Positions 2,616 to 55,390 of a stretch of DNA of 64,000 bases are shown in pieces. A program made the translations under genes and the position numbers. How positions within the stretch are numbered: position 1 is the stretch's first letter; every line of letters starts with the position of its first letter. The DNA comes from Vicinamibacteria bacterium (GTDB lineage Bacteria > Acidobacteriota > Vicinamibacteria > Fen-336 > JAGNNV01). A model generated the notes under the pieces. The model saw only the letters and a program-made list of their open reading frames with translations. It made no database searches and was not told the DNA's origin. The stretch covers positions 1,754-65,753 of the forward strand of contig JBGATM010000020.1 of the NCBI GenBank assembly GCA_044229175.1, given 5' to 3'.

Positions 2616-3446
2616 GTGGGCCCAGGTTCCCCCGTTCTGCGAGAGCCGCCAAAGAAGATGCCCCCACCCCTGTCCCAGAGAGCACCGGAAGCGCCCGGGG
2701 AGATCTTCCTGGGCGACATCACGGTGGAACTGATCCGGAAGAAGATCCGAAGCATTCGTCTGAGCGTCCGTCCGCCCGACGGCCGGGTACGGATGTCGGC
2801 GCCGCTCCGCGCGGGACTCGAAACCCTGCGGCGCTTCGCGCTCGGTAAGCTCGGCTGGATCCGCAAGCACCAGTCCCGTCTGCGGCAGGAGCCGCGGGAG
2901 GCGGCGCACCGTTACCTGGACGGCGAGCGCCACTTCGTGTGGGGGAAGCCCTATCTCTTGAGGGTTCAGGAGACGCCGGCTCCGCCCGCGGTGGAGCTCT
3001 TCTTCGCCGAACTGGTTCTTCGCGTTCGCCCCGGCGCCTCGGCGCGGAAACGAGAAGCCGTGATCGAGGCCTGGTATCACGAGAAGCTCAAGGAGGTGGC
3101 CTCGCCCCTGATCGCGAAGTGGCAGCCGGTCATAGGGGTAAAGGTGGGAAAGCTGTTCACGCAGCGAATGCGGACGCGCTGGGGAAGCTGCAACACCCGT
3201 TCCCACAGCATCCGTCTCAATACCGAGCTGGTCAGGAAGCCCGTGGCGTGCCTCGAGTACGTCATCGTGCACGAGATGACGCATCTGCTCGAGCCCAGTC
3301 ACGATCGCCGCTTCAAGGCCCTGATGACCCGCTTCATGCCCGATTGGACCGTCCATCGGCAGGCTCTTCGTCGCGCATCGACGAGCCACCCGGTTCTCTC
3401 CCCGCTAATCGCCCCGATCGTTCATCCGGGGATCGATCGTGAGTAG
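2616..3446 (+). CDS. YgjP/DUF45-type zinc metallohydrolase (M48-like)
   Basis: HEMTHL (HExxH) motif preceded by RWGSCNTRSHSIRLNTELVRKP, the DUF45/YgjP signature. Start is uncertain (2616 or ATG 2658). Confidence 0.8.
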   Translation: MGPGSPVLREPPKKMPPPLSQRAPEAPGEIFLGDITVELIRKKIRSIRLSVRPPDGRVRMSAPLRAGLETLRRFALGKLGWIRKHQSRLRQEPREAAHRYLDGERHFVWGKPYLLRVQETPAPPAVELFFAELVLRVRPGASARKREAVIEAWYHEKLKEVASPLIAKWQPVIGVKVGKLFTQRMRTRWGSCNTRSHSIRLNTELVRKPVACLEYVIVHEMTHLLEPSHDRRFKALMTRFMPDWTVHRQALRRASTSHPVLSPLIAPIVHPGIDRE

Positions 3447-3457
3447 ACTCGGGAGCC

Positions 3458-4267
3458 ATGAACACCCATCGACGGTGCGGCGCAAGCCGTTTCAGGGCGA
3501 TCCTGGCGGTGTGCCTCGCCGCACTCTCCGCATCGGCCGCGACCGCGCAGGAGGGAGGCGGCCAGAGCGTGCGCGTCTGCGCGTTCGCCGGCGCTGGTTT
3601 CTTCGCGCGTGACGCCGCAGGCGTCGCGTCGGGGTTCGAATACGATCTGCTGACCAGCTTCGCCGCGGCGGAAAAGCTCAAGGTCACCTTCGTCGACATG
3701 GCCCAGTTCGACCAGCTCCTGGCCGACACCGCGGGGGGGCGGTGCCAGATCGGCGCGGCCACGATCACCGTCACCGATGAGCGCAAGACGAAGCTCTCCT
3801 TCTCCGCTCCCTACTTCCCCAACCGCATCGTGGTCGTTCAGAAGACCACGAGCGCCTTCGTCCAGCCGACCGATCTCAAGGATCGGCGCGTGGCCGTGGT
3901 GAAGGGGACGGTCTCCGAGACCCTCGTAAGCAATATTCCCGGAGTCAAGGCGGTCCTGGTGGATGACGACGATTCCACGTTTCAGGCGCTGTTGAAGGGC
4001 ACGGCCGACGCGCTCGCCTGCGACTCCGCGGTGGTGCTTCACTATCTGAAGCAGCATGACGACCTGGCCATCGCCTTCCCCATGGGCGAGCGGTCGTTCT
4101 TCGCCTTCGCCCTTCCTCCGGGCTCGAAGCTCGTGGGCCCGCTCAACCACCATCTGAACTCCCTGCAGAAGTCGGGCGCGTTCACCAAGCTGCTCGCCAA
4201 GCACTTCGGCGAAGCGAACGCCCAGTTCCTCGCTGACGACGTGGCCAAAGCCGGCACGAAGCGCTAG
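3458..4267 (+). CDS. periplasmic amino-acid-type ABC substrate-binding protein (SBP_bac_3 family)
   Basis: N-terminal signal peptide (AILAVCLAALSASAATAQ). GFEYDLL..., ATITVTDERKTKLSFSAPYF and VAVVKGT blocks are typical of polar amino-acid binding proteins. Confidence 0.8.
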   Translation: MNTHRRCGASRFRAILAVCLAALSASAATAQEGGGQSVRVCAFAGAGFFARDAAGVASGFEYDLLTSFAAAEKLKVTFVDMAQFDQLLADTAGGRCQIGAATITVTDERKTKLSFSAPYFPNRIVVVQKTTSAFVQPTDLKDRRVAVVKGTVSETLVSNIPGVKAVLVDDDDSTFQALLKGTADALACDSAVVLHYLKQHDDLAIAFPMGERSFFAFALPPGSKLVGPLNHHLNSLQKSGAFTKLLAKHFGEANAQFLADDVAKAGTKR

Positions 4268-4399
4268 CGCGGCTGCGGACGTGGGCGGACTCCCGCTCCA
4301 GGACTGAGGGCGGCCGCCTCTCGGGTGACGAAACTCACCGGGGAGCCGGGTCGGGCGGCCTATCCTAGAGGGGTGAAGAGTTCCTATCCGGGCAAGGCG

Positions 4400-5047
4400 A
4401 TGCTCCGGGTTCTCATCTGCTCCCGGCGGGACCTGCGCCCGGAACTGGCGCAGACGCTCATCGGGCGTCAGGGCATCGAGGTCTACCGAGTCGAGAAGCT
4501 CGCCGACGCCCGGCTGGTGGGCTCGAGTCTCGGAGTCCAGGTGGTGCTGGTGGATCGGGACTTCCCGAATGCCGCCGACTTCATCCGCCAGTTGCGACAC
4601 GAGCCGGCCACGCGCGATCGCTCCATCGCCGTGCTCACCCGCCGATCGGCGCAGGGCGACCAGGAGATGATCGCCGCCGGCGCCAACGCGGTTCTTCGCC
4701 TTCCGCCGGACGCGGGATGGGACGAACGCTTCTCGAAACTCCTCACTGTGCCCGTGCGACAGCAGGCCCGGATGCTGATCCACATCGATGTGTCCACCGA
4801 GCCCGAGTATCCCGCCGCGATCCTGAACCTCAGCCCCGGGGGCATGCTCCTCGCCACCCACCGGGTCCTCCACAAGGGCGACGAGTTGATGTTCCGTTTC
4901 AGCCTGCCCGACAAGACCATGATCGTGGGTCGAGGGCGTGTGGCCAGGGAGGCTTTGCCCACGGGTTTCGGCGTGGAGTTTCTCGACCTGGGCCCGGACG
5001 GGGAGGAAGCGGTGACGAGCTTCCTGCGTTCGGCTCGATTGGGCTGA
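4400..5047 (+). CDS. degenerate receiver domain fused to PilZ (c-di-GMP binding) domain
   Basis: C-terminal PilZ motifs RQQAR (RxxxR) and NLSPGG (D/NxSxxG). The N-terminal CheY-like fold keeps VVLVDRDFP but lacks the acidic DD pocket (VLICSRRD). ATG at 4400 chosen over the GTG at 4325. Confidence 0.75.
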   Translation: MLRVLICSRRDLRPELAQTLIGRQGIEVYRVEKLADARLVGSSLGVQVVLVDRDFPNAADFIRQLRHEPATRDRSIAVLTRRSAQGDQEMIAAGANAVLRLPPDAGWDERFSKLLTVPVRQQARMLIHIDVSTEPEYPAAILNLSPGGMLLATHRVLHKGDELMFRFSLPDKTMIVGRGRVAREALPTGFGVEFLDLGPDGEEAVTSFLRSARLG

Positions 5048-5110
5048 GTTTCCCGCCCGTGAGTGACTTGCCTCACCGGTGCCGTCCCGCGTCGGCCCTA
5101 TCCTGCCGTC

Positions 5111-5587
5111 ATGGCAACCGTAAGCATTTCCTACGATCTCGCCAAGGATGACGAGGCCCAGGCGTTTCGAATCGCGGTGGCCGCCGAAGGCCTGTTCCGC
5201 GCCCTGATCGATTTCCATCGACTGGTGGTCGACCGGCGTGATCGGCGCGTGCGGTCCCAACCCTCGCACGTCCTTCGAGCGCTCCTTCGCGAACGGCTGA
5301 CCCAGCGCACCGCGGCTTGGACGCTCAAGGCCAATGCCTTGAAGCCGAGGCGCTGGCGGCGGCCCTTGCGCCCGGCCACCCTGACCGTCGAGGTCGGATT
5401 CCCCTACGTGGCCCTCTTGAATGCCGACGGCATCTTCGCCGCGGTTCGCGCGATCGACGCGTCCTTCAAGCCGGACGATTCGCCGATGCCGTGGAAGGAA
5501 ATGGCCGCGATCAACCTCGCGAAGCTCGAGGAGAACGGCGTGGCCGCCGCGTTCCTGAACGAGGTCGAGGCGCGCCGCGGCGAGTAG
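5111..5587 (+). CDS. hypothetical protein
   Basis: 158-aa ORF from ATG 5111 with G/C-rich third positions and no family recognised. Lies directly upstream (43 nt) of the pduS-like gene. Confidence 0.5.
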   Translation: MATVSISYDLAKDDEAQAFRIAVAAEGLFRALIDFHRLVVDRRDRRVRSQPSHVLRALLRERLTQRTAAWTLKANALKPRRWRRPLRPATLTVEVGFPYVALLNADGIFAAVRAIDASFKPDDSPMPWKEMAAINLAKLEENGVAAAFLNEVEARRGE

Positions 5588-5630
5588 AACCCCCTCGAGC
5601 CCGGAGGTTGGGGCTTAGAGTACGGCCTCC

Positions 5631-6944
5631 ATGTCCCTGATCGAGCAGACGCGGAAGGCCGGAGTGGTGGGCGCGGGCGGCGGCGGTTTCCCCGCCCACG
5701 TGAAGTTCGCCACCACCGCGGAAATCGTGATCGGGAACGGAGCCGAGTGCGAGCCGCTGCTCCACAAGGACGCGGCCGTGATCGAGCACCGCGCCCGCGA
5801 GGTGGTGCGCGGGATCGAACGGGTCATGGATGCGGTGGGCGCGCGCGAGGGCGTGCTCGGGATCAAGGAGAAGAAGAAGGCGGTGGTCGCGGCCGCGCAG
5901 GACGCGTGCGCGGGAAGCCGGGTGCGCGTCCATCTCCTCGGCGACTACTACCCGGCCGGCGACGAATACGATCTCGTCTTCGCGGTAACGGGGAAACTGA
6001 TTCCCCCGCAGGGCTTGCCCCTGCACGTGGGCGCGGTGGTGAGCAACGTGGAGACCCTGGCCCAGGTCGCGGCGGCTTTCGAGGGCCGTCCGGTCACGCA
6101 CAAGATGGTGACCATCGCGGGCGCGGTCGCGAATCCCTCGACCTTCGAAGTCCCGCTCGGCGCCAGTTATCGCGACCTCATCGCCGCGGCGGGGGGTGCC
6201 ATCTGCGCCGACCCCGTGCTGCAGATCGGCGGCATGATGATGGGCCGCACCAGTGAGTCGCTCGATGTTCCCATCACCAAGACCGACGCGGGGGCCATCG
6301 TGCTGCCCCGGGAGCACAAGAGCGTCGAGCGCAAGCTCCGACCGAAGGCGGCGCAGGCGCGGATCGGGCGCTCGGCCTGCGACCAGTGCCGCTATTGCAC
6401 CGAGTTCTGTCCGCGGTTTCTGCTCGGTTACGCGGTCGAACCGCACCAGGTCATGCGCGGCCTCGGCTTCTCCACCGCCGGTTCAGCCCAATGGAATCCC
6501 TGGGCGTCGCTTTGCTGCTCGTGCGGCCTGTGCACGCTCTACGCGTGTCCCGAAGACCTGTATCCGAAGGAGGCCTGCGACGACGCGAAGATCGAACTGC
6601 GCGCCGCCGGCTTCAAGTGGACGGGACCGGCGCCTGCGAAACCGCATCCGTTTCACGACGGCCGCCGCGTGCCTATCGACCGGCTGGTGAGCAAGCTCGG
6701 CATCGGGGCCTGGGACAAGCCGGCGCCCCTGCGCCCGCTGCCCAACGCGCTCACGCGTCTGGTGCTGCCGCTCAAGCAGTCGGCGGGTGTCGCCGTGGTT
6801 CCGGGGGTGCGCGAGGGGCAGAAGGTGAAGGCGGGCGAGGTCCTCGGCGAACCCCCCGAGGGCGCCCTGGGCGCGCGGCTTCATGCGCCGGTCGACGCCC
6901 GGGTCGAATCGGTGAGCGACGCTATCGTCCTGGTGAAAGCATGA
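5631..6944 (+). CDS. pduS: PduS-like / RnfC-like flavo-iron-sulfur oxidoreductase (SLBB + 2x[4Fe-4S])
   Basis: N-terminal AGVVGAGGGGFPAHVKF nucleotide/FMN site as in PduS/RnfC/Nqo1. Two ferredoxin Cys clusters (CDQCRYCTEFCP and CCSCGLCTLYACP). 437 aa, similar in length to PduS. Confidence 0.85.
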   Translation: MSLIEQTRKAGVVGAGGGGFPAHVKFATTAEIVIGNGAECEPLLHKDAAVIEHRAREVVRGIERVMDAVGAREGVLGIKEKKKAVVAAAQDACAGSRVRVHLLGDYYPAGDEYDLVFAVTGKLIPPQGLPLHVGAVVSNVETLAQVAAAFEGRPVTHKMVTIAGAVANPSTFEVPLGASYRDLIAAAGGAICADPVLQIGGMMMGRTSESLDVPITKTDAGAIVLPREHKSVERKLRPKAAQARIGRSACDQCRYCTEFCPRFLLGYAVEPHQVMRGLGFSTAGSAQWNPWASLCCSCGLCTLYACPEDLYPKEACDDAKIELRAAGFKWTGPAPAKPHPFHDGRRVPIDRLVSKLGIGAWDKPAPLRPLPNALTRLVLPLKQSAGVAVVPGVREGQKVKAGEVLGEPPEGALGARLHAPVDARVESVSDAIVLVKA

Positions 6945-7489
6945 ACAACTGCATCGGCCTGATCGAGCTCACCTCCATCGCCTCCGGTTTCGAAGCCGGA
7001 GACGCCATGATCAAGGCGGCCTCCATCGAGCTTCTCCTTGCCCGCAGCATCTGCTCGGGGAAGTACATGGTCCTGATCGGCGGGGAGGTCGCGAACGTCG
7101 AGGCGTCGATCGAAGCCGGGGCGGCCATCGCGCAGGGCTGCCTGATCGACCGGTTCGTTATCCCCAACATCCACCCTGACGTGTTCCGCGCCATCAGCCG
7201 CACCGAGATCCCGCCGCTCGAAGGAGCTCTCGGCATCCTCGAGTCGTTCAACGTCGCCACCCTTATCGAAGCCGCGGATGTCGCGGTGAAGGCCGCGGCG
7301 GTAAGGCTCCTCGAGGTGCGCCTCGCCATGGCCATGGGCGGCAAGGCCTTCTGCACGATGACCGGCGACGTGGCCGCGGTGCAGGCCGCCGTCGCGGCGG
7401 GACGCGCGGTGATCGCGAAGCGCGGTCTGCTCGTCAACGCGGTCGTGATTCCACGACCGTCACCGGAGTTGTACCGGGAACTCGTCTAA
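6941..7489 (+). CDS. pduT: PduT-like tandem-BMC-domain (BMC-T) microcompartment shell protein
   Basis: MNNCIGLIELTSIASGFEAGDAMIKAASIELLLARSICSGKYMVLIGG... aligns from memory along its length with Salmonella PduT ([42 protein letters not shown]...). The pore FeS Cys (SIC-SGK) and the second BMC repeat (GILESFNVATLIEAADVAVKAA) are both present. ATGA overlap with pduS. Confidence 0.85.
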   Translation: MNNCIGLIELTSIASGFEAGDAMIKAASIELLLARSICSGKYMVLIGGEVANVEASIEAGAAIAQGCLIDRFVIPNIHPDVFRAISRTEIPPLEGALGILESFNVATLIEAADVAVKAAAVRLLEVRLAMAMGGKAFCTMTGDVAAVQAAVAAGRAVIAKRGLLVNAVVIPRPSPELYRELV

Positions 7490-7494
7490 ACGCC

Positions 7495-7516
7495 GGATTC
7501 CCCCGGGCGGGAATCC
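7495..7516. terminator. GC-rich hairpin between convergent genes (possible bidirectional terminator)
   Basis: Perfect 8-bp stem GGATTCCC/GGGAATCC with loop CCGGGC, lying between the pduT stop (7489) and the CBS gene stop (7521). No U-tract. Confidence 0.45.
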
Positions 7517-7520
7517 TGTC

Positions 7521-8036
7521 TCACATCGGAAGGTTTCGCGGCTCCTGCGCCTGGGCTTCGGCCCGCCGCCGCGGCTTCCGCGCGGGCGGCGGAGCGGTCC
7601 AGGGCCGACCGATCGCGGCCAGGGTCCGGGTGACTTCCTTGTCGAGTCCGTTTCCCCGTACCGAGGCTGCGTGCCGGGCCAGGTCGTTGAGCGAAAGCAC
7701 GCCCAGCGGCCGGCCTGCGGCATCGAGCACGGGAATGCGCCGGACCTTCCGCTCGCGCATCAGGCGCTCGGCCGCGTCCAGCGATGCGTCCGCGCGACAG
7801 GACGCGACCTCCCAGGCCATTGCGCTCGACACCTGGATCGCCGGCAACGGGGTTCCCTGCGTGTAGGCGGACATGCAGATATCCCGATCGGTGATCATGC
7901 CGACCACGCTGCCGTCATCGTTCACGACCGGCAGGGCCCCGCAATCGTGCTGCCACATCAGTTGGGCAGCCGTATTGAGAGTGTCGCCGGCCCGGCAGAC
8001 CGCCGCCGGCTTGCTCATGATGTCCTTGACCTTCAT
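7521..8036 (-). CDS. CBS-pair domain protein
   Basis: From ATG 8036 (RBS GGAGAAG upstream): MKVKDIMSKPAAVCRAGDTLNTAAQLMWQHDCGALPVV...GMITDRDI...RIPVLD..., two CBS motifs. The long N-terminal extension in the ORF track (to 8414) is Arg-rich junk overlapping hsp20. Confidence 0.85.
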   Translation of the reverse strand: MKVKDIMSKPAAVCRAGDTLNTAAQLMWQHDCGALPVVNDDGSVVGMITDRDICMSAYTQGTPLPAIQVSSAMAWEVASCRADASLDAAERLMRERKVRRIPVLDAAGRPLGVLSLNDLARHAASVRGNGLDKEVTRTLAAIGRPWTAPPPARKPRRRAEAQAQEPRNLPM

Positions 8037-8098
8037 GGTCTTCTCCTCACCGTGATTCCGTGGGAACGAACGCCGTGGCGGCGCCTTCGGGCGTCGGA

Positions 8099-8563
8099 TC
8101 AGTGGACGGCGATCTGCTTGGCGGTCGGGGCCTTCGCTTTCGTCTTCCCGATGACGACGTTGAGCATGCCGTCCTTGAAGGTCGCGTCGACCTTGGCCGG
8201 GTCCGTATCGTCCGGCATGGTGAAGCGACGCAGGAAGTGGCCGTAAGAGAGCTCGCGGCGATGGAACTTCTCGTCCTTCTCTTCCTTCTCCTCGCGCCGG
8301 TCGCCCTGGATGGTGAGGACGCCGTCGTCGAGGGTGACCTTGACGTCTTCCTTCTTCACACTGGGAAGTTCGGCGTGGATCCGATACTCGGTGTCTGTCT
8401 CGCTGATGTCGCACGAGGGAGCCCAGTCGCTCGTGGCCAGCAACTCCCGCTCGCCGTTGCCCGCGAAGCGAGTGAGGCCGAAGAGACGATTCATGCGGGT
8501 CGAGAGGTCTTCCATCTCACGAAACGGGTCCCAGGTGTCTTGTCGTCGAATGAGCGGCATCAT
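8099..8563 (-). CDS. Hsp20/alpha-crystallin small heat-shock protein
   Basis: Alpha-crystallin core ...DISETDTEYRIHAELPSVKKEDVKVTLDDGVLTIQGDRREE...SYGHFLRRFTMPDDTDPAKVDATFKDGMLNVVIGK. ATG 8563 lies 7 nt after AAAGGAG. Confidence 0.92.
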   Translation of the reverse strand: MMPLIRRQDTWDPFREMEDLSTRMNRLFGLTRFAGNGERELLATSDWAPSCDISETDTEYRIHAELPSVKKEDVKVTLDDGVLTIQGDRREEKEEKDEKFHRRELSYGHFLRRFTMPDDTDPAKVDATFKDGMLNVVIGKTKAKAPTAKQIAVH

Positions 8564-8619
8564 TGTCAATCTCCTTTGGATGGCCCGGGGAGTCCCGGGC
8601 GACGTCTCGCATGGGGTCC

Positions 8620-9158
8620 AGCGGCGAGGACGCCGTTCCCGAGTGGAGCAGGTTCCCGCTTTCAGTACTCAGGAGATCGAGCGGAGCAGGGGGCCCGGGG
8701 AAAGGGAATCCCGCTGCACGCCTCTCTTGGGGTTGGCCGGGATCTCGAAGTCTTCTGGGTCGCTGAGAGCCCGATTCATTGGTTTCTCGGGGTGGACCGC
8801 CTGGCTTCCTCGTATTCAAGGCCAGGTTACGATCGCTCTCCAGCGCCGTCCGCCGCGCATCTTCCGCGCGGTTTCATCCTTCCTCGTCCCGCCTCCTCTT
8901 CGGAGTTCCTTCGCTCATCCTCCCGCCCCTCTTGGCTGGGGCTCTGCCTGATACGGGTTTTCAGCCCTCTTCGCGGCACCGCCGAGAGCGTCCACTTTTT
9001 GCGAGGGCGTCCGACCCCCGCTTTCGTTCCGTCCCCGGGTTTTCCAAAACCCCTCGACGGCTTGCTCCGCTTTCGGTTCCGCCGGCTTGTCTCGTCCGGC
9101 TGCCACGTCCAGGGTTCTTGCTGCTCGGCTCGGGAGACCATCTCTCAGCCGCTGGACT
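8620..9158 (-). ncRNA. candidate long structured RNA or unusually long 5' leader of hsp20 (unclassified)
   Basis: No credible ORF in any frame. The - strand is purine-rich. Many local hairpins: 8800-8826, 8853-8871, 8964-9008 enclosing CGGC-GGU-GCCG, and 9037-9052. The motif GAAAGCGG occurs 3 times (8656-8663, 9018-9025, 9067-9074). A sigma54-type promoter sits at its 5' end. Confidence 0.3.
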
Positions 9159-9169
9159 CTGCCGGCCGC

Positions 9170-16544: not shown

Positions 16545-18059
16545 CTACATCTTGCGCAGTTTGCCCCGGTCGATCTTGCCGAGGTGGGTCCTCGGCATGC
16601 TCTCGAGGACCACGACCTGGCGCGGCGCCTTGAAGGGCTCGAGCCGCTCGAGCGCGAAGGCGCGCAGGTCCTCTGCGAACGAGGCCCGGGCCTCGGGGGG
16701 GCACGACCGCGCCACCACGTAGGCCCACGGCTTGACCAGGCCCTGCGCGTCGGCGACGCCCACTACCGCCACCTCGGCCACGTTCGAGTGCTCCTGCAGG
16801 CAGTTCTCGACCTCGGCGGGAGTGAGCCAGCGTCCGCCCACCTTCAGCATGTCGTCGTCGCGGCCGCAGTAGTAGAAGTAGCCCTCCGCGTCCTGGCGGA
16901 CCATGTCCCGCGAGGCGTACCACTCTCCGCGGAAGACCTGCTGGGTCTTGTCCATCTCGTGCCAGTAGGCGATGGCGCGGGACGCCCCTCTCACCCAGAG
17001 GAACCCGGTCTCCCCGCGGGGAAGCTCCCGGCCCTCTTCGTCGCACACCTTGACATCGAACCCGGGTACGGCGAGGCCGAGGCTGCCCGGCTGGGTATGG
17101 GCGAAGGTGTTGGTCAGGAAGATGTGCCACATCTCGGCCGTCCCCAGTCCGTCGAGGAGTGGAACCCCGAACAAATGCTGCCACCGGCGATAGAGCTCCT
17201 CGCTCAACGCCTCGCCCGCCGAGGTGGTCGCGCGGATGCAGGTCAGGTCCTGGGCGGCGGCGTCGGGATGCGACGTCATCTGGTGCACCATGGTGGGCAC
17301 GTTGATCAGGAAGGTCGGCCGGTGCCTGGCGATCTGATCGAAGAGGGCGTCCGGCGTGCACTTGGCCGCGAAGAGCACCGAGGTGGCGCCCACCGAGAAG
17401 GGAAAGATCAGGTTCGATCCGGTGGCGTAGCCGAAGTAGAGCTTGGGCACGGACAGCGTGATGTCGTTCTCCGTGTAGCCCATGGCCCCCTTGGCGTAGA
17501 GCTCGGTGGTGTTGACGAAGGAGCCATGGGTCTGGATGACCCCCTTCGGCCGACCGGTGGTCCCGCCGGAGAAGAGCCAGATCGCCGCGTCGTCCCGATG
17601 ACTTCGGAAGGTCGCGAAGATCTCGCTGGTGGAGGCGAGGCGCTTCTCGAGGCCGGCGTCGCCGCGCACCAGGACCTCACGAAGCGAGGAAACGGAAGCG
17701 CCCGCTTCGCGAAAGACCGCGGCGGAATCGCCTTCGGTCACCACCACCTTGGCCCGCGTGTATTCGAGGAAGTACTCGATCTCGTCCTTCTTCAGGCCCG
17801 GGTTCGCCATGACCACAGCCGCCCCGAGTTTCAAGGTCCCGAAGAATGCCGCCACCCAGTCGAGGCTGTCGTGGAGGGCGAGGAGGACACGTTGTTCCGG
17901 CTCCACCCCGGACGAGCGCAGGACATGGGCGAAGCGGTTCGCGCGCCGTTGCACCTCGGCATAGGTGTAGACCCCGTCATCCGTGATCAGCGCGCGTCTT
18001 TCGCCGCGGCCCTCCTGAACCCGCGCGTCGAGGCAGTAGTCCGCCAGGTTCACGTACAT
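16545..18059 (-). CDS. aryl-CoA ligase, benzoate/2-aminobenzoate-CoA ligase family (AMP-dependent synthetase)
   Basis: MYVNLADYCLDARV...YTYAEVQRRANRFAHVL is the N-terminus typical of benzoate-CoA ligases. Has the AMP motif FSGGTTGRPKGV, plus YFGYATG and a C-terminal PRTHLGKIDRGKLR. ATG 18059 chosen. Confidence 0.88.
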   Translation of the reverse strand: MYVNLADYCLDARVQEGRGERRALITDDGVYTYAEVQRRANRFAHVLRSSGVEPEQRVLLALHDSLDWVAAFFGTLKLGAAVVMANPGLKKDEIEYFLEYTRAKVVVTEGDSAAVFREAGASVSSLREVLVRGDAGLEKRLASTSEIFATFRSHRDDAAIWLFSGGTTGRPKGVIQTHGSFVNTTELYAKGAMGYTENDITLSVPKLYFGYATGSNLIFPFSVGATSVLFAAKCTPDALFDQIARHRPTFLINVPTMVHQMTSHPDAAAQDLTCIRATTSAGEALSEELYRRWQHLFGVPLLDGLGTAEMWHIFLTNTFAHTQPGSLGLAVPGFDVKVCDEEGRELPRGETGFLWVRGASRAIAYWHEMDKTQQVFRGEWYASRDMVRQDAEGYFYYCGRDDDMLKVGGRWLTPAEVENCLQEHSNVAEVAVVGVADAQGLVKPWAYVVARSCPPEARASFAEDLRAFALERLEPFKAPRQVVVLESMPRTHLGKIDRGKLRKM

Positions 18060-18139
18060 GGAAATATTCGGTGTCACCGGCGGTTCTTCTCCGTTTTGTC
18101 CCCTGGTCCTTGCGAGAATACGGGAGGAACCTCCAGTCA

Positions 18140-18901
18140 ATGAAATATCTGGCCGAGATGACTTTCGCGGAAGTGAGGGAGATGGGCGAGGACGCGGTGG
18201 TCATCCTGCCCGTCGGAGCCATCGAGGCGCACGGCCCGCACCTGCCCCTGCAGACCGACGTGATCATCGCGCGCGGCATGGCCGCGGCCGGGGCGCGGGC
18301 CCTGGAGGCGAGCGGTTTCAAGGACGTGGTGATCGCCCCTCTGCTCCAGTGGACTTCCGCGGGATTCGCCGCGGGATTCGCGGGGACCCTGTCGCTCTCG
18401 CCCGCCACCGTGACCGCGATCCTGGCCGATGCGGCCCTCAGCCTGCATCGAGCGGGCTTCGCGCACATCGTCCTCGCCAATTCTCACCTCGATCCCGCGC
18501 ACACCGCCTCGTTGCACGAGGGTGTGCGGCTGGCGAAGGAGAGGCACGGTGTAGTCGTCACCTTCCCGGACATCACCCGGAAGCCGTGGGCCCTTCGCCT
18601 CACCCCCGAGTTCAAGAGCGGGGCGTGCCACGCCGGCCAGTTCGAGACCTCGATCGTGATGGCCGAGCGACCCGACCTGGTGCGCGAATCCATCCGCGTC
18701 ACCCTCGAGCCCAATCCGGTTTCCCTCTCGCAGGCCATCCGGGACGGGAAGAAGACCTTCGAAGAGGCGGGAGGGCCGTCCGCCTACTTCGGGTTCCCCC
18801 GGGACGCGTCCGAGGCCGAGGGCCGGGAGAGCGTGGCCGCGCTGGGAGCGATTCTGGCGGACGCCCTGGTAGCCGCTCGAACGCCGGGCAGAGGAGAATG
18901 A
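18140..18901 (+). CDS. creatininase-family amidohydrolase (creatinine amidohydrolase/MftE-like)
   Basis: AVVILPVGAIEAHGPHLPLQTD, ...LANSHLDPAH... and HAGQFETS metal-ligand motifs of the creatininase fold. RBS GGGAGGA lies before ATG 18140. Confidence 0.82.
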   Translation: MKYLAEMTFAEVREMGEDAVVILPVGAIEAHGPHLPLQTDVIIARGMAAAGARALEASGFKDVVIAPLLQWTSAGFAAGFAGTLSLSPATVTAILADAALSLHRAGFAHIVLANSHLDPAHTASLHEGVRLAKERHGVVVTFPDITRKPWALRLTPEFKSGACHAGQFETSIVMAERPDLVRESIRVTLEPNPVSLSQAIRDGKKTFEEAGGPSAYFGFPRDASEAEGRESVAALGAILADALVAARTPGRGE

Positions 18902-20890: not shown

Positions 20891-22032
20891 GCGTCGACCT
20901 TCAGCCGGTCCGGGCTTTTCTCGATCCGTCGCACGCCGCCCTGCTCGACAAGGCGAAGGCCTTCGGCCGCGACGTCCTCGCCTTGCGCAAGCCGCCCGAG
21001 AACGATGTCGACGGCCGGAGCGAGGCCCGGGCTCTCCTGAGGCTCATGGGTGAGGCCGGGCTCTTCGAGCCGATCCAGGCCCGCGACTATCGCGGCTGCT
21101 GCCTCTTGCGCGAGGAACTCGCATTCCACTCGCCCCTCGCGGATGCCGTCTTCGCCCTTCAGGCTCTCGGCGCCACCCCGATCCTCCTCTCCGGCACGCC
21201 CCTTCACATGGCGCAGGCCCACGAGGCCATCGCGGGGCGGAAGATGGGGGCGTTCGCCATGACCGAGCCCGAGGCGGGCTCCGACGCGCACGGCATCGCC
21301 TGCCTGGCCCGGCGCGATGGCGACGCCTACGTCCTGAACGGGGTGAAGACGCTGATCTCGAACGGAGGCCTCGCGGATTTCTACGTGGTCTTCGCCGCGA
21401 TCGAGCGAGGGAACCCGAAATCGATCACCGCCTTCCTCGTCGAGGCCCGCGCCGCGGGACTCGAGTTCGTGCGGCCGCTGGTCATGTCGGCCCCGCACCC
21501 TCTCGGTGAGATCGCGTTTCGAGATTGCCGGGTCGCGGAGTCGGCGCGGATCGGCAAGGAAGGCGAAGGTCTCAAGCTCGCGCTTTCGACCCTCGATCGA
21601 CTGCGCGCCACCGTAGGGGCAGCCGCCTGCGGCATGGCCGCGCGGGCCCTGTCGGAGGCCATCGGGCACGCGCAGGCCCGCCGCCAGTTCGGCAAGCCGC
21701 TCGCCGATCTTCAACTCATCCAGGAGAAGATCGCGCGCATGGCCATCCGCCTGCGGGCCTCCCGCCTGCTCGTCTACGAGGCGGCCTGGGAAAAGGACAA
21801 GGGCGCCGAGCGGGTGACCCTGGAGTCGGGCATGGCCAAGGCCTTCGCGACGGAGAGCGCGCAGTCCATCGTCGACGACGCCGTCCAGATCCTCGGGGGC
21901 CGCGGCGTCCTCAAGGAGTCGATGGTGGACCTGCTCTATCGCTCCGTCCGCGCCCTGCGCATCTACGAGGGCACCACGGAGATCCAGCATCTGCTCGTGG
22001 CCGCTCAGCTTCTGAAAGCGGTGAAGGCATGA
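20887..22032 (+). CDS. acyl-CoA dehydrogenase
   Basis: Has FAMTEPEAGSDA, ...LISNGG..., QFGKPLADLQLIQEKIA and a C-terminal YEGTTEIQ. ATGA overlap with the upstream gene. Confidence 0.92.
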   Translation: MSVDLQPVRAFLDPSHAALLDKAKAFGRDVLALRKPPENDVDGRSEARALLRLMGEAGLFEPIQARDYRGCCLLREELAFHSPLADAVFALQALGATPILLSGTPLHMAQAHEAIAGRKMGAFAMTEPEAGSDAHGIACLARRDGDAYVLNGVKTLISNGGLADFYVVFAAIERGNPKSITAFLVEARAAGLEFVRPLVMSAPHPLGEIAFRDCRVAESARIGKEGEGLKLALSTLDRLRATVGAAACGMAARALSEAIGHAQARRQFGKPLADLQLIQEKIARMAIRLRASRLLVYEAAWEKDKGAERVTLESGMAKAFATESAQSIVDDAVQILGGRGVLKESMVDLLYRSVRALRIYEGTTEIQHLLVAAQLLKAVKA

Positions 22033-24335
22033 GAGTCGTGGGCGTCGGCGCCGGCCCCGCGGCCCTGTACCTCGCCATCCTTCTCAAGAAGAAGGATGCG
22101 TCGCACTCCGTGACCCTGTTCGAGCGGCACCATCCGGGCGAGTCGTTCGGCTTCGGGGTCGTCTTCTCCGACGCGACCATGGACAACCTGGCGCATGCCG
22201 ATCCTTCCACCATCGACCGGCTGAAGGAGAGCTTCCACCACTGGGACGACATCGAGGTCCATTACCGCGGCGAGCTCCTGCGGTCTACCGGCCACGGCTT
22301 CAGCGGGGTGGCCCGCTCCACCCTGTTGAGAATTCTGCGCAACGAGGCGTTGCGCCTCGGGGTCGAGATCCGGAACGGGGTCGAGATCCACTCGCGCGCC
22401 GACCTCCCTCCCGCGGACCTCATCGTCGCCGCGGACGGGGTAGCGAGCTTCCTGCGAACGGAGTCGGCGGCCCGGTTCGGGACGCGGATCGACGAGCGGA
22501 AGAATCGCTTCGTATGGCTCGGCACCACGCGGAGGTTTCCCGCGTTCACCTTCTACTTCAAGCACAACGAGCACGGCCTGTTCCGCGTGCACGCCTACCA
22601 GTACGAGACCCATCCAAGCGGCGAGAATCCCTGCTCGACCTTCATCGTGGAAGCCACCGACGAGACCTTCCGCCGGGCCGGACTCTCCGAGACGGACGAA
22701 GCGAAGACCGTCGCTTACTGCGAGGCTCTCTTCCGCGAGCAACTGCAGGGCGAGAAGCTCATTCCCAACCGTTCGATCTGGCGCCGCTTTCCCACCGTGG
22801 TCAACGAGCACTGGCACGACGGCTCGATGGTCCTGATCGGAGACGCCGCGCACACCGCGCATTTCTCGGTCGGCTCCGGCACCAAGCTCGCCATGGAGGA
22901 TTCGATCGCTCTCGCCGCGGCTCTTTCGGAGGGGAGCGAGATCCCCGAGGCCCTGGCCCGGTATGAGAGCGAGCGCCGGGCGCCGGTGGAGAGCCTGCAG
23001 CGCGCCGCCCAGGCGAGCCTCGAGTGGTTCGAGGACACCGAGCGCTACATGGGGACGCCGCCGATCCAGTTCGGCTTCAACCTCGTGACCCGGAGCCTGC
23101 GCATCACTCACGAGGACCTGCGCAAGCGCGATCCCGGATACATCGCCAAGATCGACGCCTGGTTCGCGGTCGAGTCGGAAGCGCAGGCCGGGGTCATCGC
23201 GCCCCTGCTGGACCTCGTCGAGCGCGACTCCCGGGGCGGCACGCGTCGCATCGCGCCTCCCTTCCTCACCCCGTTCAAGATGCGCGATCTCGTGCTCGAA
23301 AACCGTATCGTGGTCTCCTCGATGTGCCAGTACTCGGCGGCGGACGGGATGCCCGACGACTGGCACCTCGTCCACCTCGGCAGCCGGGCCATCGGCGGCG
23401 CGGGCCTGGTGATGGCGGAGATGACCGATGTCACCCCGGGCGGGCGGATCACCCTGGGCTGCACCGGGCTCTACGACGACAAGCAGGTCAAGCCCTGGAA
23501 GCAGATCGTCGAGTTCGTTCACAAGCACAGCGCGGCGAAGATCGGGATCCAGCTGGGCCACGCCGGCCGCAAAGGCGCTTCCACGCCGGAGTGGGAGGGC
23601 GACCTTGCCCTTCCGCCCGAGCAGTCCTGGGATCTTCTGGCCCCCTCGGCGATTCCGTGGTCGAAAGCCAAGCGCGTTCCCCGGGAGATGACCGCCGAGG
23701 ACATGGCGGAGGTGAAGGGTCACTTCGCCCAGGCCGCGAGGCGGGCGCGCAAGGCGGGCTTCGATCTGCTCGAACTCCACTGCGCCCACGGTTACCTGCT
23801 CGCGAGCTTCCTTTCGCCCCTCACCAACCATCGCTCCGACGACTACGGCGGATCTCTGGCGAACCGCCTCCGCTATCCGCTCGAAGTGTTCGACGCGGTC
23901 CGCGGGGCGTGGCCCGCGGAGAAGCCGCTCACCGTGCGTATCTCCGCCACCGACTGGGTGGACGGCGGCATCGTGGCCGAGGAGGCGGTGGCCATCGCGA
24001 AGGCTTTCAAGGAGCACGGTTGCGATCTCATCGACGCGTCCGCGGGTCAGACCGTGCCCGAACAGCGGCCTCGCTACGGACGCCTGTTCCAGACTCCCTT
24101 CGCGGACCGTATCCGGCACGAAGCGGGGATCGCGACCATGGCGGTGGGCGCGATCTCATCGTACGCCGACGCGAACACCATTCTCGCCGCGGGCCGCGCC
24201 GACCTCGTGGCCCTTGCGCGCGCGCACCTGTACGACCCCTATTGGACCCGGCATGCCGCTCAGGAATTCGGTGTCCGCCTGCCCTGGCCGGATCCGTATT
24301 CGTCGATCAACCGCTACACGCCCCGGTTCCGCTAG
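22029..24335 (+). CDS. bifunctional aryl-CoA monooxygenase/reductase: FAD aromatic hydroxylase fused to Old-Yellow-Enzyme FMN reductase (2-aminobenzoyl-CoA monooxygenase/reductase or salicylyl-CoA 5-hydroxylase type)
   Basis: N-terminus MRVVGVGAGPAALYLA (GxGxxG), with later VLIGDAAHTAHFSVGSGTKLAMED (FAD hydroxylase). The C-terminal half has ...VSSMCQY...HLGSRAIGGAGLV...LELHCAHGYLLASFLSPLTNHRSDDYGGSLANR (OYE). 768 aa from ATG 22029, with an ATGA overlap. Confidence 0.88.
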   Translation: MRVVGVGAGPAALYLAILLKKKDASHSVTLFERHHPGESFGFGVVFSDATMDNLAHADPSTIDRLKESFHHWDDIEVHYRGELLRSTGHGFSGVARSTLLRILRNEALRLGVEIRNGVEIHSRADLPPADLIVAADGVASFLRTESAARFGTRIDERKNRFVWLGTTRRFPAFTFYFKHNEHGLFRVHAYQYETHPSGENPCSTFIVEATDETFRRAGLSETDEAKTVAYCEALFREQLQGEKLIPNRSIWRRFPTVVNEHWHDGSMVLIGDAAHTAHFSVGSGTKLAMEDSIALAAALSEGSEIPEALARYESERRAPVESLQRAAQASLEWFEDTERYMGTPPIQFGFNLVTRSLRITHEDLRKRDPGYIAKIDAWFAVESEAQAGVIAPLLDLVERDSRGGTRRIAPPFLTPFKMRDLVLENRIVVSSMCQYSAADGMPDDWHLVHLGSRAIGGAGLVMAEMTDVTPGGRITLGCTGLYDDKQVKPWKQIVEFVHKHSAAKIGIQLGHAGRKGASTPEWEGDLALPPEQSWDLLAPSAIPWSKAKRVPREMTAEDMAEVKGHFAQAARRARKAGFDLLELHCAHGYLLASFLSPLTNHRSDDYGGSLANRLRYPLEVFDAVRGAWPAEKPLTVRISATDWVDGGIVAEEAVAIAKAFKEHGCDLIDASAGQTVPEQRPRYGRLFQTPFADRIRHEAGIATMAVGAISSYADANTILAAGRADLVALARAHLYDPYWTRHAAQEFGVRLPWPDPYSSINRYTPRFR

Positions 24336-54355: not shown

Positions 54356-55390
54356 TCAAACCGGGAGGGTCGAAAGCTCGAGGCCTCGGGCGCTCATCCG
54401 GTCCTTGTATCGGCGCAGCGTCAGTTCGACGTCCACGACGAGCATTTCCGTGGTGCTTTCCAGCTGATCGAGAACGCGATGCTGCTGGGTGAAATCGGGC
54501 TTGTCGACCTCGCGGGAATCGGCGAGCATTTCGAGGCGCGCCCCCCACTCCATGAGACCCTGAAGGCTCGCTTCGGAGTGGGTGTCGAGGTGCGACGGTT
54601 CGGTCTTGCCGAGGTCGAGGCCGCGCATGAAGGCCCCGATCTCGCGTCGGCGCGCCCGGGCCCGCTCGACCAGGCTCGCGAAGGTCCGCTTGGTGGGGAT
54701 CACCCGGTTGGGCGGCGCGGCTTCGATGGCGCCCCGGAAGCGCTCCTCGGCGGTACGCGCAAGCTCGAGGAGCTCCCGTTCGGAGGGCGCGGGCTGGAGT
54801 TTCTCTGACTTGGCCCGGATCTCCGCCGCGGCGACGTCGAGCGACTCCCGGACGCAGGCCACCGCGCCGCGGAAGAGGTACTGGATCTCTTCGCGGGACT
54901 TGAACCCGTCGGGCAGGAACACGGTGCCGGGAGGGAACTGGGGGCCCTTGGTGGGCTTGGGCGTCTTCGCCTTGCGGCCGGGCTTTTCCGCCTTCAGCTT
55001 GCCCTTGGGCGCCACGAGGAGATTGAGGCCCTTGCCCTTGCCGCCGTTCCCTTCGGGGAGGGCGCCTCCCGCCGCTTCCCGCATCTTGCGCTTGAGGGCC
55101 AGCTTCGCTTCCTTGGCGAGTGCTTTGGCCGCGATCTTGGCCTCGAGCTTGGCCTTGGCCTTCTCGATCTTCAGGAGTTTCTTCTGAGCCTTGAGGGCGG
55201 CCTTGGCTGCGGCCCGCTCGGCGGGCGTGGGCCTGGGCGCCTTCTTCTCGACCGCTTTCACCGCCTTCGCCTTGGCGGCTTTAGGCTTGCCCGCCTTGGC
55301 CTTGGCCTTCATCGACTTGGCGGCGGCCTTCTTGACCGCGGCTTTGGCGGCAGGCTTTTGAGCAGCTTTGGATTTTGTCTTGTTGGGCAT
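54356..55390 (-). CDS. histone-H1-like Lys/Ala-rich N-terminal domain + uncharacterised helical C-terminal domain (putative partner of Top6A homologue)
   Basis: 344 aa. The first ~150 aa are AKKA/KAKA low-complexity (MPNKTKSKAAQKPAAKAAVKKAAAKSMKAKAKAGKPKAAKAKA...). The C-terminal ~190 aa (FLPDGFKSREEIQYLFRGAVACV...LVVDVELTLRRYKDRM) has ordinary composition and no GHKL motifs. It starts 18 nt after the top6A-like stop. Confidence 0.75.
   Translation of the reverse strand: MPNKTKSKAAQKPAAKAAVKKAAAKSMKAKAKAGKPKAAKAKAVKAVEKKAPRPTPAERAAAKAALKAQKKLLKIEKAKAKLEAKIAAKALAKEAKLALKRKMREAAGGALPEGNGGKGKGLNLLVAPKGKLKAEKPGRKAKTPKPTKGPQFPPGTVFLPDGFKSREEIQYLFRGAVACVRESLDVAAAEIRAKSEKLQPAPSERELLELARTAEERFRGAIEAAPPNRVIPTKRTFASLVERARARRREIGAFMRGLDLGKTEPSHLDTHSEASLQGLMEWGARLEMLADSREVDKPDFTQQHRVLDQLESTTEMLVVDVELTLRRYKDRMSARGLELSTLPV

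What the first reader, a model, noticed from the sequence alone, without database searches (positions are those of the whole stretch)
5111..7489. Orphan PduS-PduT redox module: a microcompartment shell protein with no microcompartment nearby
The ORFs 5631-6944 and 6941-7489 (ATGA-coupled) encode a PduS-like flavo-FeS oxidoreductase and a PduT-like tandem-BMC (BMC-T) shell protein. The PduS-like protein has GAGGGGFP and two ferredoxin Cys clusters. The PduT-like protein retains the pore Cys (RSIC-SGKY against Salmonella KTIC-PGKF, from memory) that ligates a [4Fe-4S] cluster at the trimer centre. In 1,2-propanediol metabolosomes this pair is thought to pass electrons across the shell. Here there is no BMC-H hexamer, no BMC-P pentamer and no signature enzyme (aldehyde dehydrogenase, diol dehydratase, etc.) anywhere in the 64 kb. 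The neighbours are a hypothetical protein (5111-5587), a pseudo-receiver-PilZ protein and a convergent CBS/Hsp20 stress pair. This is either a satellite locus of a distant BMC or a shell-independent use of a BMC-T/PduS electron relay.
Basis: partly seen in the sequence, partly recalled or inferred. Interest (0 to 1): 0.62.

Follow-up and report, generated by a model that had tools for sequence, protein, structure and literature searches.

The report
Known satellite redox pair of a microcompartment
The two genes are a real PduS-like/PduT-like electron-relay pair, but this is the already published "MNdh/BMC-T(SE)" module, which usually sits apart from the other organelle genes, and close relatives carry the missing shell genes on another contig, so the finding is ordinary.

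Summary
Window 5631-6944 encodes a PduS-like flavo-FeS protein. Window 6941-7489, joined by an ATGA overlap, encodes a tandem-BMC shell protein whose pore Cys38 aligns with PduT Cys38. No other shell, aldehyde dehydrogenase or aldolase gene lies in the 64 kb.

The "orphan" reading is not supported. The organism is a wastewater Vicinamibacteria (Acidobacteriota subdivision 6). Sutter et al. 2021 describe the ACI microcompartment of exactly this group and note that PduS/PduT homologues occur as pairs in a satellite location. Sutter et al. 2024 renamed the pair MNdh/BMC-T(SE). They showed that it passes electrons from NADH out through the shell, and they counted it in satellites in 5 of 7 ACI cases and 18 of 20 PVM cases.

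Two congeneric MAGs have the syntenic pair on one contig. On another contig they have an operon of BMC-H, three BMC-P and the ACI-typical small cysteine protein. In three metagenomes that hold the window organism, one contig with that BMC-H matches the window's depth (11.3/18.3/15.1 against about 12.5/16-21/15.0). It is absent from a control run that lacks the organism.

Both genes are under strong purifying selection.

Verdict: an ordinary satellite of a fragmented ACI-type microcompartment, already known, of low interest.

The parts
5631..6944 (+). MNdh (PduS-like metabolosome NADH dehydrogenase), 437 aa. It has an FMN/NADH domain, SLBB, a 2x[4Fe-4S] dicluster domain, and an RnfC_N-type barrel at the C-terminus (circularly permuted relative to RnfC).
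   Evidence: Pfam. RnfC 7zc6_C aligns in two pieces: query 4-308 to RnfC 124-416, and query 376-430 to RnfC 32-85. The 8 FeS Cys and AGVVGAGGxGFP are invariant or at least 95% conserved in 77 sequences. dN/dS is 0.08-0.14 against relatives at 86-91% aa identity.
6941..7489 (+). BMC-T(SE) (PduT-like single-layer tandem-BMC shell protein), 182 aa, with pore Cys38 in the motif I-C-S-G-K-Y.
   Evidence: Pfam 2x PF00936. Full-length PDB matches are 3nwg (E 2e-51) and PduT 3pac/3n79 (E about 1e-42), with the Cys aligned. The motif is invariant in 121/121. The edge residues K25, K117, IPNIHP and IPRP are conserved. dN/dS is 0.03-0.14 against the same relatives.
7495..7516 (.). Perfect 8-bp inverted repeat (GGATTCCC-N6-GGGAATCC), starting 6 bases after the BMC-T stop, between the convergent BMC-T and CBS genes. 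It is a possible shared transcript end with no T-run.
   Evidence: Read directly from the sequence. The consensus terminator scan did not call it.
5111..5587 (+). Genus-restricted hypothetical protein (158 aa) upstream of the pair. It is a real gene but not part of the conserved module.
   Evidence: No Pfam or NCBIfam hit. Only 8 representatives exist in 1.84 billion proteins. It is present in the congeners L013 and L014 (91% aa, dN/dS 0.07) but absent next to the pair in more distant Vicinamibacteria. There the upstream gene is a Ser/Thr kinase or a cold-shock gene.

Best explanation
The pair is the MNdh/BMC-T(SE) cofactor-recycling module of a bacterial microcompartment. It is encoded as a satellite locus of a fragmented ACI-type (Acidobacteria) metabolosome whose shell operon lies elsewhere in the genome.

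Proposed working, taken from the published characterisation of homologues and inferred for this protein:
1. Inside the compartment the aldehyde dehydrogenase reduces NAD+ to NADH.
2. MNdh docks on the lumen-facing side of the BMC-T(SE) trimer and oxidises NADH at its FMN.
3. It passes the electrons over its two [4Fe-4S] clusters to a [4Fe-4S] cluster held by the three Cys38 residues at the trimer pore.
4. From there the electrons leave to an unidentified cytoplasmic or membrane acceptor. This regenerates NAD+ without making an alcohol by-product.

Shown here: the domain architecture, all cofactor ligands, the pairing of the two genes, purifying selection, and a shell operon in the same assemblies as the syntenic pair in two congeners.

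Inferred: cluster binding, encapsulation, the direction of electron flow, and that the co-abundant shell contig belongs to this very genome.
For: Architecture and ligands.

The two genes travel as a pair with changing neighbours across Vicinamibacteria, Verrucomicrobiota and Planctomycetes. The genome scan adds Ignavibacteria and Latescibacterota.

In 12 of 80 species loci, all Verrucomicrobiota, the pair lies within 10 kb of other shell genes, and 9 of the 12 have both BMC-H and BMC-P. Of the 30 loci with at least 8 kb on both sides, 6 have a full shell set (3 BMC-H + 2-3 BMC-P) and 24 have none.

Literature:
- ACI type in Acidobacteria subdivisions 4 and 6, with PduS/PduT pairs in a satellite location.
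- Experimental MNdh/BMC-T(SE) mechanism and satellite statistics.

Main shell operon:
- GCA_035432945.1 has the pair on DAORUA010000006.1 (L013: 97% aa identity to the window's BMC-T, 86% nt and syntenic with the window). It has BMC-H + 3 BMC-P + a 77-aa EP/3-Cys protein on DAORUA010000004.1 (L226).
- GCA_019694155.1 has the pair on JAIBCN010000252.1 (L014) and the shell operon on JAIBCN010000113.1 (L235).

Co-abundance: a contig with BMC-H and BMC-P pieces has depth 11.3/18.3/15.1 in runs X1/X2/X3 and is absent from X21. Window contigs have depth 10.3-15.6 / 15.9-20.7 / 15.0 / 0 in the same runs.

The BMC-H reconstructed from that contig equals P0394, which a source names EutM of Vicinamibacteria.

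dN/dS is 0.03-0.14 for both genes against relatives at 86-97% aa identity.
Against: The complete genome of the window organism was not available. The shell operon in this very genome is therefore inferred from depth covariation in three runs and from two congeners (about 85% nt identity), not read directly.

MAG binning could in principle have put contigs together wrongly, although two independent MAGs agree.

The shell operon of this genus lacks the adjacent class II aldolase and 2-hydroxyacid dehydrogenase that define ACI main loci. No aldehyde dehydrogenase was located. The metabolic core that would feed NADH to MNdh is therefore unseen.

The pore motif is C-S-G-K, not the C-P-(G/S)-K printed in the 2024 paper.

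No expression data: the one 'RNA' run has flat, DNA-like depth.
Confidence: 0.88

Rival explanations
1. A true orphan: the organism has no microcompartment shell, and the BMC-T trimer plus the PduS-like enzyme work as a free-standing, shell-independent electron relay.
For: No other BMC gene lies in 64 kb. Most relatives also show the pair isolated within +/-10 kb. The genome of this exact organism was not read.
Against: Two congeneric MAGs with the syntenic pair carry a BMC-H + 3 BMC-P operon. A shell contig tracks the window's depth in three runs and is absent from the control. The residues that tile BMC proteins into a shell (K25, K117, IPNIHP, IPRP) stay conserved. The published catalogues find MNdh only in genomes with aldehyde-dehydrogenase BMCs.
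Confidence: 0.04
2. Classical PduS/PduT of a 1,2-propanediol (PDU) system: PduS acts as a cobalamin reductase that recycles coenzyme B12 for a diol dehydratase.
For: Full-length similarity to Salmonella/Citrobacter PduT (E about 1e-42) and the PduS-like architecture.
Against: The PduT equivalog model TIGR02526 scores 120 bits against a cut-off of 250. There are no pdu genes in the window or next to the shell operon of relatives. The clade is the one shared by the ACI and PVM satellites, and neither type uses B12.
Confidence: 0.03
3. A decaying or unused remnant acquired by horizontal transfer, with no present function.
For: The module is clearly mobile. Neighbours differ in nearly every lineage, and the closest non-Acidobacteria relatives are Verrucomicrobiota at 67-72% identity.
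Against: The ORFs are intact and the coupling is kept in all relatives. dN/dS is 0.03-0.14, and every cofactor ligand is invariant.
Confidence: 0.03
4. An RnfC subunit of an Rnf ion-translocating complex, with the BMC gene unrelated.
For: The best NCBIfam and PDB matches of the enzyme are RnfC.
Against: The score is below the RnfC cut-off (216.8 against 245.95). The RnfC_N domain is at the C-terminus, not the N-terminus. There are no rnfA/B/D/E/G genes nearby. The gene is translationally coupled to the BMC-T in every relative.
Confidence: 0.01

Closest known systems
MNdh / BMC-T(SE) module (Sutter, Kerfeld and co-workers, PNAS 2024, PMC11626177)
   Same: The four-domain enzyme has the same C-terminal, permuted RnfC_N domain. 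The adjacent single-layer BMC-T has a pore cysteine. The pair occurs as a two-gene unit, mostly in satellite loci of PVM and ACI types.
   Different: The pore motif here is C-S-G-K (invariant in this clade) rather than the printed C-P-(G/S)-K. The characterised protein was from Clostridium botulinum (GRM1). Nothing biochemical is known for this clade.
ACI-type microcompartment of Acidobacteria (Sutter et al. 2021, PMC8217296)
   Same: The phylum and class match (subdivision 6). Congeners carry a BMC-H, a BMC-P triplet, and the roughly 80-aa protein with an N-terminal encapsulation-peptide-like helix and three cysteines. The PduS/PduT pair is in a satellite position.
   Different: In this genus the shell operon has no adjacent class II aldolase or 2-hydroxyacid dehydrogenase, so the locus is more fragmented than the type description. 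Soil relatives such as L113 do have them.
Salmonella/Citrobacter PduS and PduT
   Same: The fold matches, Cys38 is at the trimer pore, and the flavin and two ferredoxin-type clusters are present.
   Different: This pair is not in a pdu operon, has no B12 context, and scores below the equivalog cut-off for PduT. The function proposed now is NAD+ regeneration, not corrin reduction.
RnfC (Rnf complex, e.g. 7zc6 chain C)
   Same: Homologous FMN/NADH and dicluster domains, and the same linear electron path.
   Different: The protein is circularly permuted, soluble and has no Rnf partners. It delivers electrons to a shell protein instead of to RnfB/D/G.
PVM microcompartment satellites of Verrucomicrobiota and Planctomycetes
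   Same: The same BMC-T clade (67-72% identity, same ICSGKY motif). In some genomes the pair sits 2.5-7 kb from the full shell cluster or directly before rhamnose genes.
   Different: A different phylum and a different main locus. PVM has three BMC-H and two or three BMC-P with aldolase, AldDh and PTAC.

Membership tests
BMC-T(SE) (Fe-S PduT-like shell protein) | Two tandem PF00936 domains in a protein of about 180 aa (single-layer BMC-T) | tested here: met
   Pfam 2 stretches, E 5e-45. Full-length alignment to 3nwg, 3pac and 3n79.
BMC-T(SE) (Fe-S PduT-like shell protein) | Pore cysteine homologous to PduT Cys38 | tested here: met
   Cys38 aligns with the Cys of KTICPGKF and KPVCPGKY. It is invariant in 121/121.
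BMC-T(SE) (Fe-S PduT-like shell protein) | Literal motif C-P-(G/S)-K as printed in PMC11626177 | tested here: inconclusive
   The sequence is C-S-G-K. Cys, Gly and Lys are kept, and Pro is replaced by Ser in the whole clade. The same clade ('mud', T_pvm) is listed as ACI and PVM satellites in the 2021 catalogue.
BMC-T(SE) (Fe-S PduT-like shell protein) | Gene adjacent to an MNdh gene | tested here: met
   ATGA overlap. The pairing is kept in every relative examined.
BMC-T(SE) (Fe-S PduT-like shell protein) | Binds a [4Fe-4S] cluster at the trimer centre | not testable with these tools
   Needs purification and EPR or UV-visible spectroscopy.
MNdh (PduS-like) | Complex1_51K + SLBB + 4Fe-4S dicluster + C-terminal PF13375 domain | tested here: met
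   Pfam. Two-piece alignment to RnfC.
MNdh (PduS-like) | Gly-rich nucleotide motif and eight cluster cysteines | tested here: met
   AGVVGAGGxGFP and Cys 250/253/256/260 and 295-296/298/301/306 are invariant in 77/77.
MNdh (PduS-like) | NADH oxidation with electron transfer to BMC-T(SE) | not testable with these tools
   Shown only for the C. botulinum homologue.
PduT equivalog (NCBIfam TIGR02526) | Score at or above the curated cut-off of 250.3 bits | tested here: not met
   120.4 bits.
RnfC (NCBIfam TIGR01945) | Score at or above 245.95 bits, N-terminal RnfC_N domain, rnf operon context | tested here: not met
   216.8 bits. The RnfC_N domain is C-terminal. There are no rnf genes nearby.
Satellite BMC locus (Axen 2014; Sutter 2021) | Holds only one class of shell Pfam and is distal from any BMC-H + BMC-P locus | tested here: met
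   There is one PF00936 gene and no PF03319 in 64 kb.
Satellite BMC locus (Axen 2014; Sutter 2021) | [quoted passage not shown] | tested here: inconclusive
   Met in two congeneric MAGs (L226 with L013; L235 with L014). For this genome there is only depth covariation of a shell contig.
ACI-type BMC | Acidobacteria; BMC-H plus a BMC-P triplet; a roughly 80-aa protein with an N-terminal EP and three Cys | tested here: met
   Seen in the congeners L226 and L235 and in many same-genus contigs. Sources name the proteins as Vicinamibacteria.
ACI-type BMC | Class II aldolase with a C-terminal EP and a 2-hydroxyacid dehydrogenase in the main locus | tested here: not met
   Neither is present within the +/-3-10 kb retrieved around the shell operon in this genus. 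Soil loci such as L113 do have both.
ACI-type BMC | Aldehyde dehydrogenase on a satellite locus | not tested
There is none in the window.

The most novel reading that the evidence does not exclude
In this wastewater Vicinamibacteria genus the organelle genes are unusually scattered. The shell operon is stripped of its signature enzymes, and the redox pair sits alone among signalling and stress genes. The most novel reading still open is that the BMC-T(SE)/MNdh pair also, or only, works outside a shell as a soluble trimeric Fe-S relay to cytoplasmic or membrane acceptors.
Probability: 0.04. Interest if true: 0.6.

Novelty: already known. Interest (0 to 1): 0.14.

Why it matters
It matters little beyond correct annotation. 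The pair should be named MNdh/BMC-T(SE), a satellite of an ACI-type microcompartment. It should not be called RnfC/EutM or treated as an orphan.

Two minor points may interest microcompartment specialists:
- This genus shows a more fragmented ACI layout than the type description. The shell operon has no aldolase or hydroxyacid dehydrogenase next to it.
- In a sister lineage the pair is followed by a membrane polyferredoxin (Fer4_5). That protein is a candidate for the still unknown external electron acceptor.

Tried and rejected
1. I searched the protein database with the Haliangium BMC-H (sequence verified against PDB) to find the organism's hexamer. Every top hit that carried an organism name was Myxococcota or unclassified Proteobacteria, so the search was useless for this purpose.

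2. I looked up more PduT relatives hoping for one embedded in an Acidobacteria main locus. A Planctomycete locus and one of unknown taxon were both isolated pairs.

3. Laying the metagenome contigs on two soil ACI loci at 80% likeness was very noisy, because dozens of BMC-H genes from other organisms also aligned. Only the depth signature of one contig was usable.

4. None of the 120 metagenome loci matched that contig's BMC-H.

It was then found through the cluster look-up.

6. The run labelled RNA (X12) has flat depth over genes and spacers alike, so it gives no expression evidence.

7. Rfam found nothing in the window. The promoter scan found nothing, and the terminator-like matches were no more numerous than in shuffled sequence.

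8. The idea that the upstream hypothetical gene belongs to the module was rejected, because the gene is confined to this genus. No convincing encapsulation-peptide pattern was seen by eye, and this was not tested formally.

They served only as search probes.
Full report
**1. Observation.**
The two ORFs exist as described. The stop of 5631-6944 and the start of 6941-7489 overlap as ATGA.

Pfam gives Complex1_51K, SLBB, a 4Fe-4S dicluster domain and a C-terminal RnfC_N domain for the first protein. It gives two BMC (PF00936) domains for the second.

Against the PDB, the second protein aligns over its full length with the Desulfitobacterium BMC-T 3nwg (E 2e-51) and with PduT (3pac, 3n79; E about 1e-42). 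Its Cys38 (RSICSGKY) lies on the cluster-ligating Cys of PduT (KTICPGKF).

The first protein matches RnfC in two pieces. Residues 4-308 align to RnfC 124-416, and residues 376-430 align to RnfC 32-85. It is therefore circularly permuted.

I annotated all 53 called genes of the window with Pfam. I also scanned all six frames with BMC-H and BMC-P probes. There is no second PF00936 gene, no PF03319, no aldehyde dehydrogenase and no class II aldolase.

The window is ordinary chromosomal core: rpsB, tsf, pyrH, frr, rpsI, rplM, lpxD, citrate synthase and many signalling genes.

**2. Whose genome.**
The closest named relatives of the BMC-T are from Vicinamibacteria. Identical proteins sit on wastewater, bioreactor and sludge metagenome contigs with the same gene order.

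The nearest species genomes in the GTDB set are two Vicinamibacteria MAGs. Both have 97% amino-acid identity in the BMC-T, about 85% nucleotide identity, and synteny with window 5061-18319.

**3. The pair is a mobile two-gene unit.**
In every relative the two genes are adjacent, but their neighbours change:
- a Ser/Thr kinase and a Fer4_5 protein;
- a cold-shock gene and GH127;
- rhamnose genes rhaA-rhaT-FGGY in a 6.5-Mb chromosome;
- Planctomycete genes.

Among 80 species loci, 12 have the pair within 10 kb of other shell genes, and all 12 are Verrucomicrobiota. Nine of the 12 have both BMC-H and BMC-P. Of the 30 loci with at least 8 kb on both sides, 6 have a full shell cluster (three BMC-H, two or three BMC-P) within 10 kb and 24 have none.

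All cofactor ligands are invariant: the eight cluster cysteines and the Gly-rich motif in 77/77, and ICSGKY in 121/121. dN/dS against relatives at 86-97% amino-acid identity is 0.03-0.14 for both genes. The positions that BMC proteins use to tile into a shell (K25, K117, IPNIHP, IPRP) are conserved as well.

**4. What is already published.**
Sutter et al. 2021 (PMC8217296) define the ACI microcompartment. It is found only in Acidobacteria, mainly subdivisions 4 and 6. That subdivision 6 is the class Vicinamibacteria is my own knowledge of the taxonomy.

The ACI main locus has a class II aldolase, a 2-hydroxyacid dehydrogenase, one BMC-H, a BMC-P triplet and a roughly 80-aa protein with an encapsulation peptide and three cysteines. 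The aldehyde dehydrogenase is on a satellite. [quoted passage not shown] Its BMC-Ts tree lists ACI and PVM satellite proteins together in one clade.

The 2024 PNAS paper (PMC11626177) renames the pair MNdh and BMC-T(SE). It describes the C-terminal permuted PF13375 domain. By modelling, footprinting, EPR and electrochemistry it shows NADH-driven electron transfer through FMN and three 4Fe-4S clusters to the outside of the shell. It reports that the module is in satellites in 18 of 20 PVM and 5 of 7 ACI occurrences.

**5. Direct test for a main locus.**
A search with the Haliangium BMC-H returned only Myxococcota among its named hits.

I then scanned the metagenome collection for a GC-rich HVIPRPH pattern. 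Thirteen of the 120 loci showed the full order aldolase, BMC-H, then BMC-P genes, and a further ten showed BMC-H followed directly by BMC-P genes. The BMC-H proteins of these loci form a tight family, mostly at least 90% identical to one another. L113 also has the small Cys protein and a 2-hydroxyacid-dehydrogenase-like gene, so it is a canonical ACI locus.

I laid the contigs of three runs that hold the window organism, and of one control run from the same sample that lacks it, on two of these loci. This singled out one contig with BMC-H and BMC-P pieces. Its depth is 11.3, 18.3 and 15.1 in X1, X2 and X3, and it is absent from X21. The window's own contigs have depth 10.3-15.6, 15.9-20.7, 15.0 and 0 in the same runs.

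I reconstructed that contig's BMC-H from the reported differences and loose ends and used it as a probe. I identified it through the cluster members as P0394, which sources name EutM of Vicinamibacteria.

Its encoding contigs all carry the same operon: BMC-H, three BMC-P, and a 75-86-aa protein with an amphipathic N-terminus and the motif GSPC...C...C..GH.

One of these contigs is DAORUA010000004.1 of GCA_035432945.1. This is the same assembly whose contig DAORUA010000006.1 carries the syntenic PduS/PduT pair. A second case is GCA_019694155.1, with the shell operon on JAIBCN010000113.1 and the pair on JAIBCN010000252.1.

Depth covariation makes it very probable for the window organism itself.

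**6. Mechanism and its status.**
The most likely function is NAD+ regeneration for an aldehyde-oxidising metabolosome. NADH is oxidised at the FMN of MNdh. Electrons then cross two clusters in MNdh and the pore cluster of the BMC-T(SE) trimer to reach an outside acceptor.

The parts list and ligands are shown here. The activity is taken from the characterised homologue and is inferred for this protein.

Open points:
- The enzymes of the core (aldolase, hydroxyacid dehydrogenase, aldehyde dehydrogenase) are not next to the shell operon in this genus and were not located.
- The pore motif has Ser where the paper prints Pro.
- There are no usable expression data.

**7. Rivals.**
- A shell-independent relay is not excluded for this exact genome. 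However, it conflicts with the congeners, the co-abundant shell contig and the conserved tiling residues.
- A classical PDU role is contradicted by the missing pdu and B12 context and the sub-threshold PduT equivalog score.
- A decaying remnant is contradicted by the selection data.
- An Rnf subunit is contradicted by the permutation, the missing partners and the sub-threshold score.

**8. Verdict.**
This is a correctly read pair of genes, but an already described arrangement. It is a satellite MNdh/BMC-T(SE) module of a fragmented ACI-type microcompartment. Interest is low.

Noticed in passing
L226:6001-7420; L235:3001-4416; also L215-L234: In this Vicinamibacteria genus the shell operon is BMC-H, three BMC-P and a small Cys protein. 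It is flanked by an ABC transporter, a metallophosphoesterase and a TonB receptor. The class II aldolase and 2-hydroxyacid dehydrogenase that define ACI main loci in soil relatives (L113) are not adjacent. The ACI system here is more fragmented than the published type.
   Followed up: partly
L226:7187-7420 (and the equivalent ORFs in L215-L235; L113:4284-4496): A conserved 71-86-aa protein lies after the BMC-P triplet. Its amphipathic N-terminus (MDDAKIDLIAREVLxSLKK) resembles an encapsulation peptide. In the 11 same-genus operons the C-terminus carries the motif GSPC-x8-C-x6-C-R-x-[FL]-GH, while the soil locus L113 has a different cysteine spacing ending in YGH. The protein has no Pfam hit. 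It fits the unnamed ACI protein of Sutter et al. 2021. Its function is unknown, possibly metal binding.
   Followed up: partly
L007/L008/L019:10612-11715, L009:3845-4948, L020:12344-14041: In a sister lineage (86-89% identical BMC-T) a 367-aa membrane polyferredoxin (Pfam Fer4_5, NapH/MauN-like) lies downstream of the pair: directly after it in L007-L009 and L019, and about 1.8 kb downstream in L020. It is a candidate for the unknown acceptor of the electrons that leave the shell. It is absent from the window and from the other loci.
   Followed up: partly
L010:10708-14670 (= L058, OW818681.1): In a 6.5-Mb chromosome the pair sits directly upstream of rhaA, rhaT and an FGGY kinase. This fits the rhamnose/fucose role of PVM-type compartments.
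   Followed up: no
window 6941-7489 and its 120 listed relatives: The whole clade has the pore motif I-C-S-G-K-Y, with Ser where Salmonella PduT and the 2024 consensus have Pro.
   Followed up: yes
L215-L234: Two exact BMC-H sequences (P0381 and P0394, which differ at one residue) are each encoded by shell operons that differ by up to 22-27% at the nucleotide level. This points to extreme purifying selection on the hexamer.
   Followed up: partly
window 55409-56515 (-) and 54356-55390 (-): There is a Topo VI subunit A / Spo11-type gene (TP6A_N + Toprim, E 3e-60) in a bacterium. The gene next to it (344 aa) has no Pfam hit and is too short for a typical subunit B.
   Followed up: no
window 8570-9364: A roughly 800-bp stretch without a convincing gene lies between Hsp20 and the STAS gene. 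The 8-10 kb composition window that contains it has a negative AT skew of -0.21. There is no Rfam match. Gene callers also left the stretch empty on the same-species contig L001.
   Followed up: partly
window 21525-24335 (+): A 936-aa fusion of an FAD monooxygenase-type domain (FAD_binding_3) with an Old-Yellow-Enzyme domain (Oxidored_FMN). It lies downstream of acyl-CoA ligase, SDR and enoyl-CoA hydratase genes.
   Followed up: no
run X12 on window 3000-10000: A run labelled RNA-Seq (source 'METAGENOMIC') covers genes and spacers at a flat depth of about 7-9. It behaves like DNA and should not be used as expression evidence.
   Followed up: yes
window 5111-5587 (+): The upstream hypothetical gene is real (dN/dS 0.07 against congeners). 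It belongs to a tiny family, with 8 representatives among 1.84 billion proteins.
   Followed up: yes
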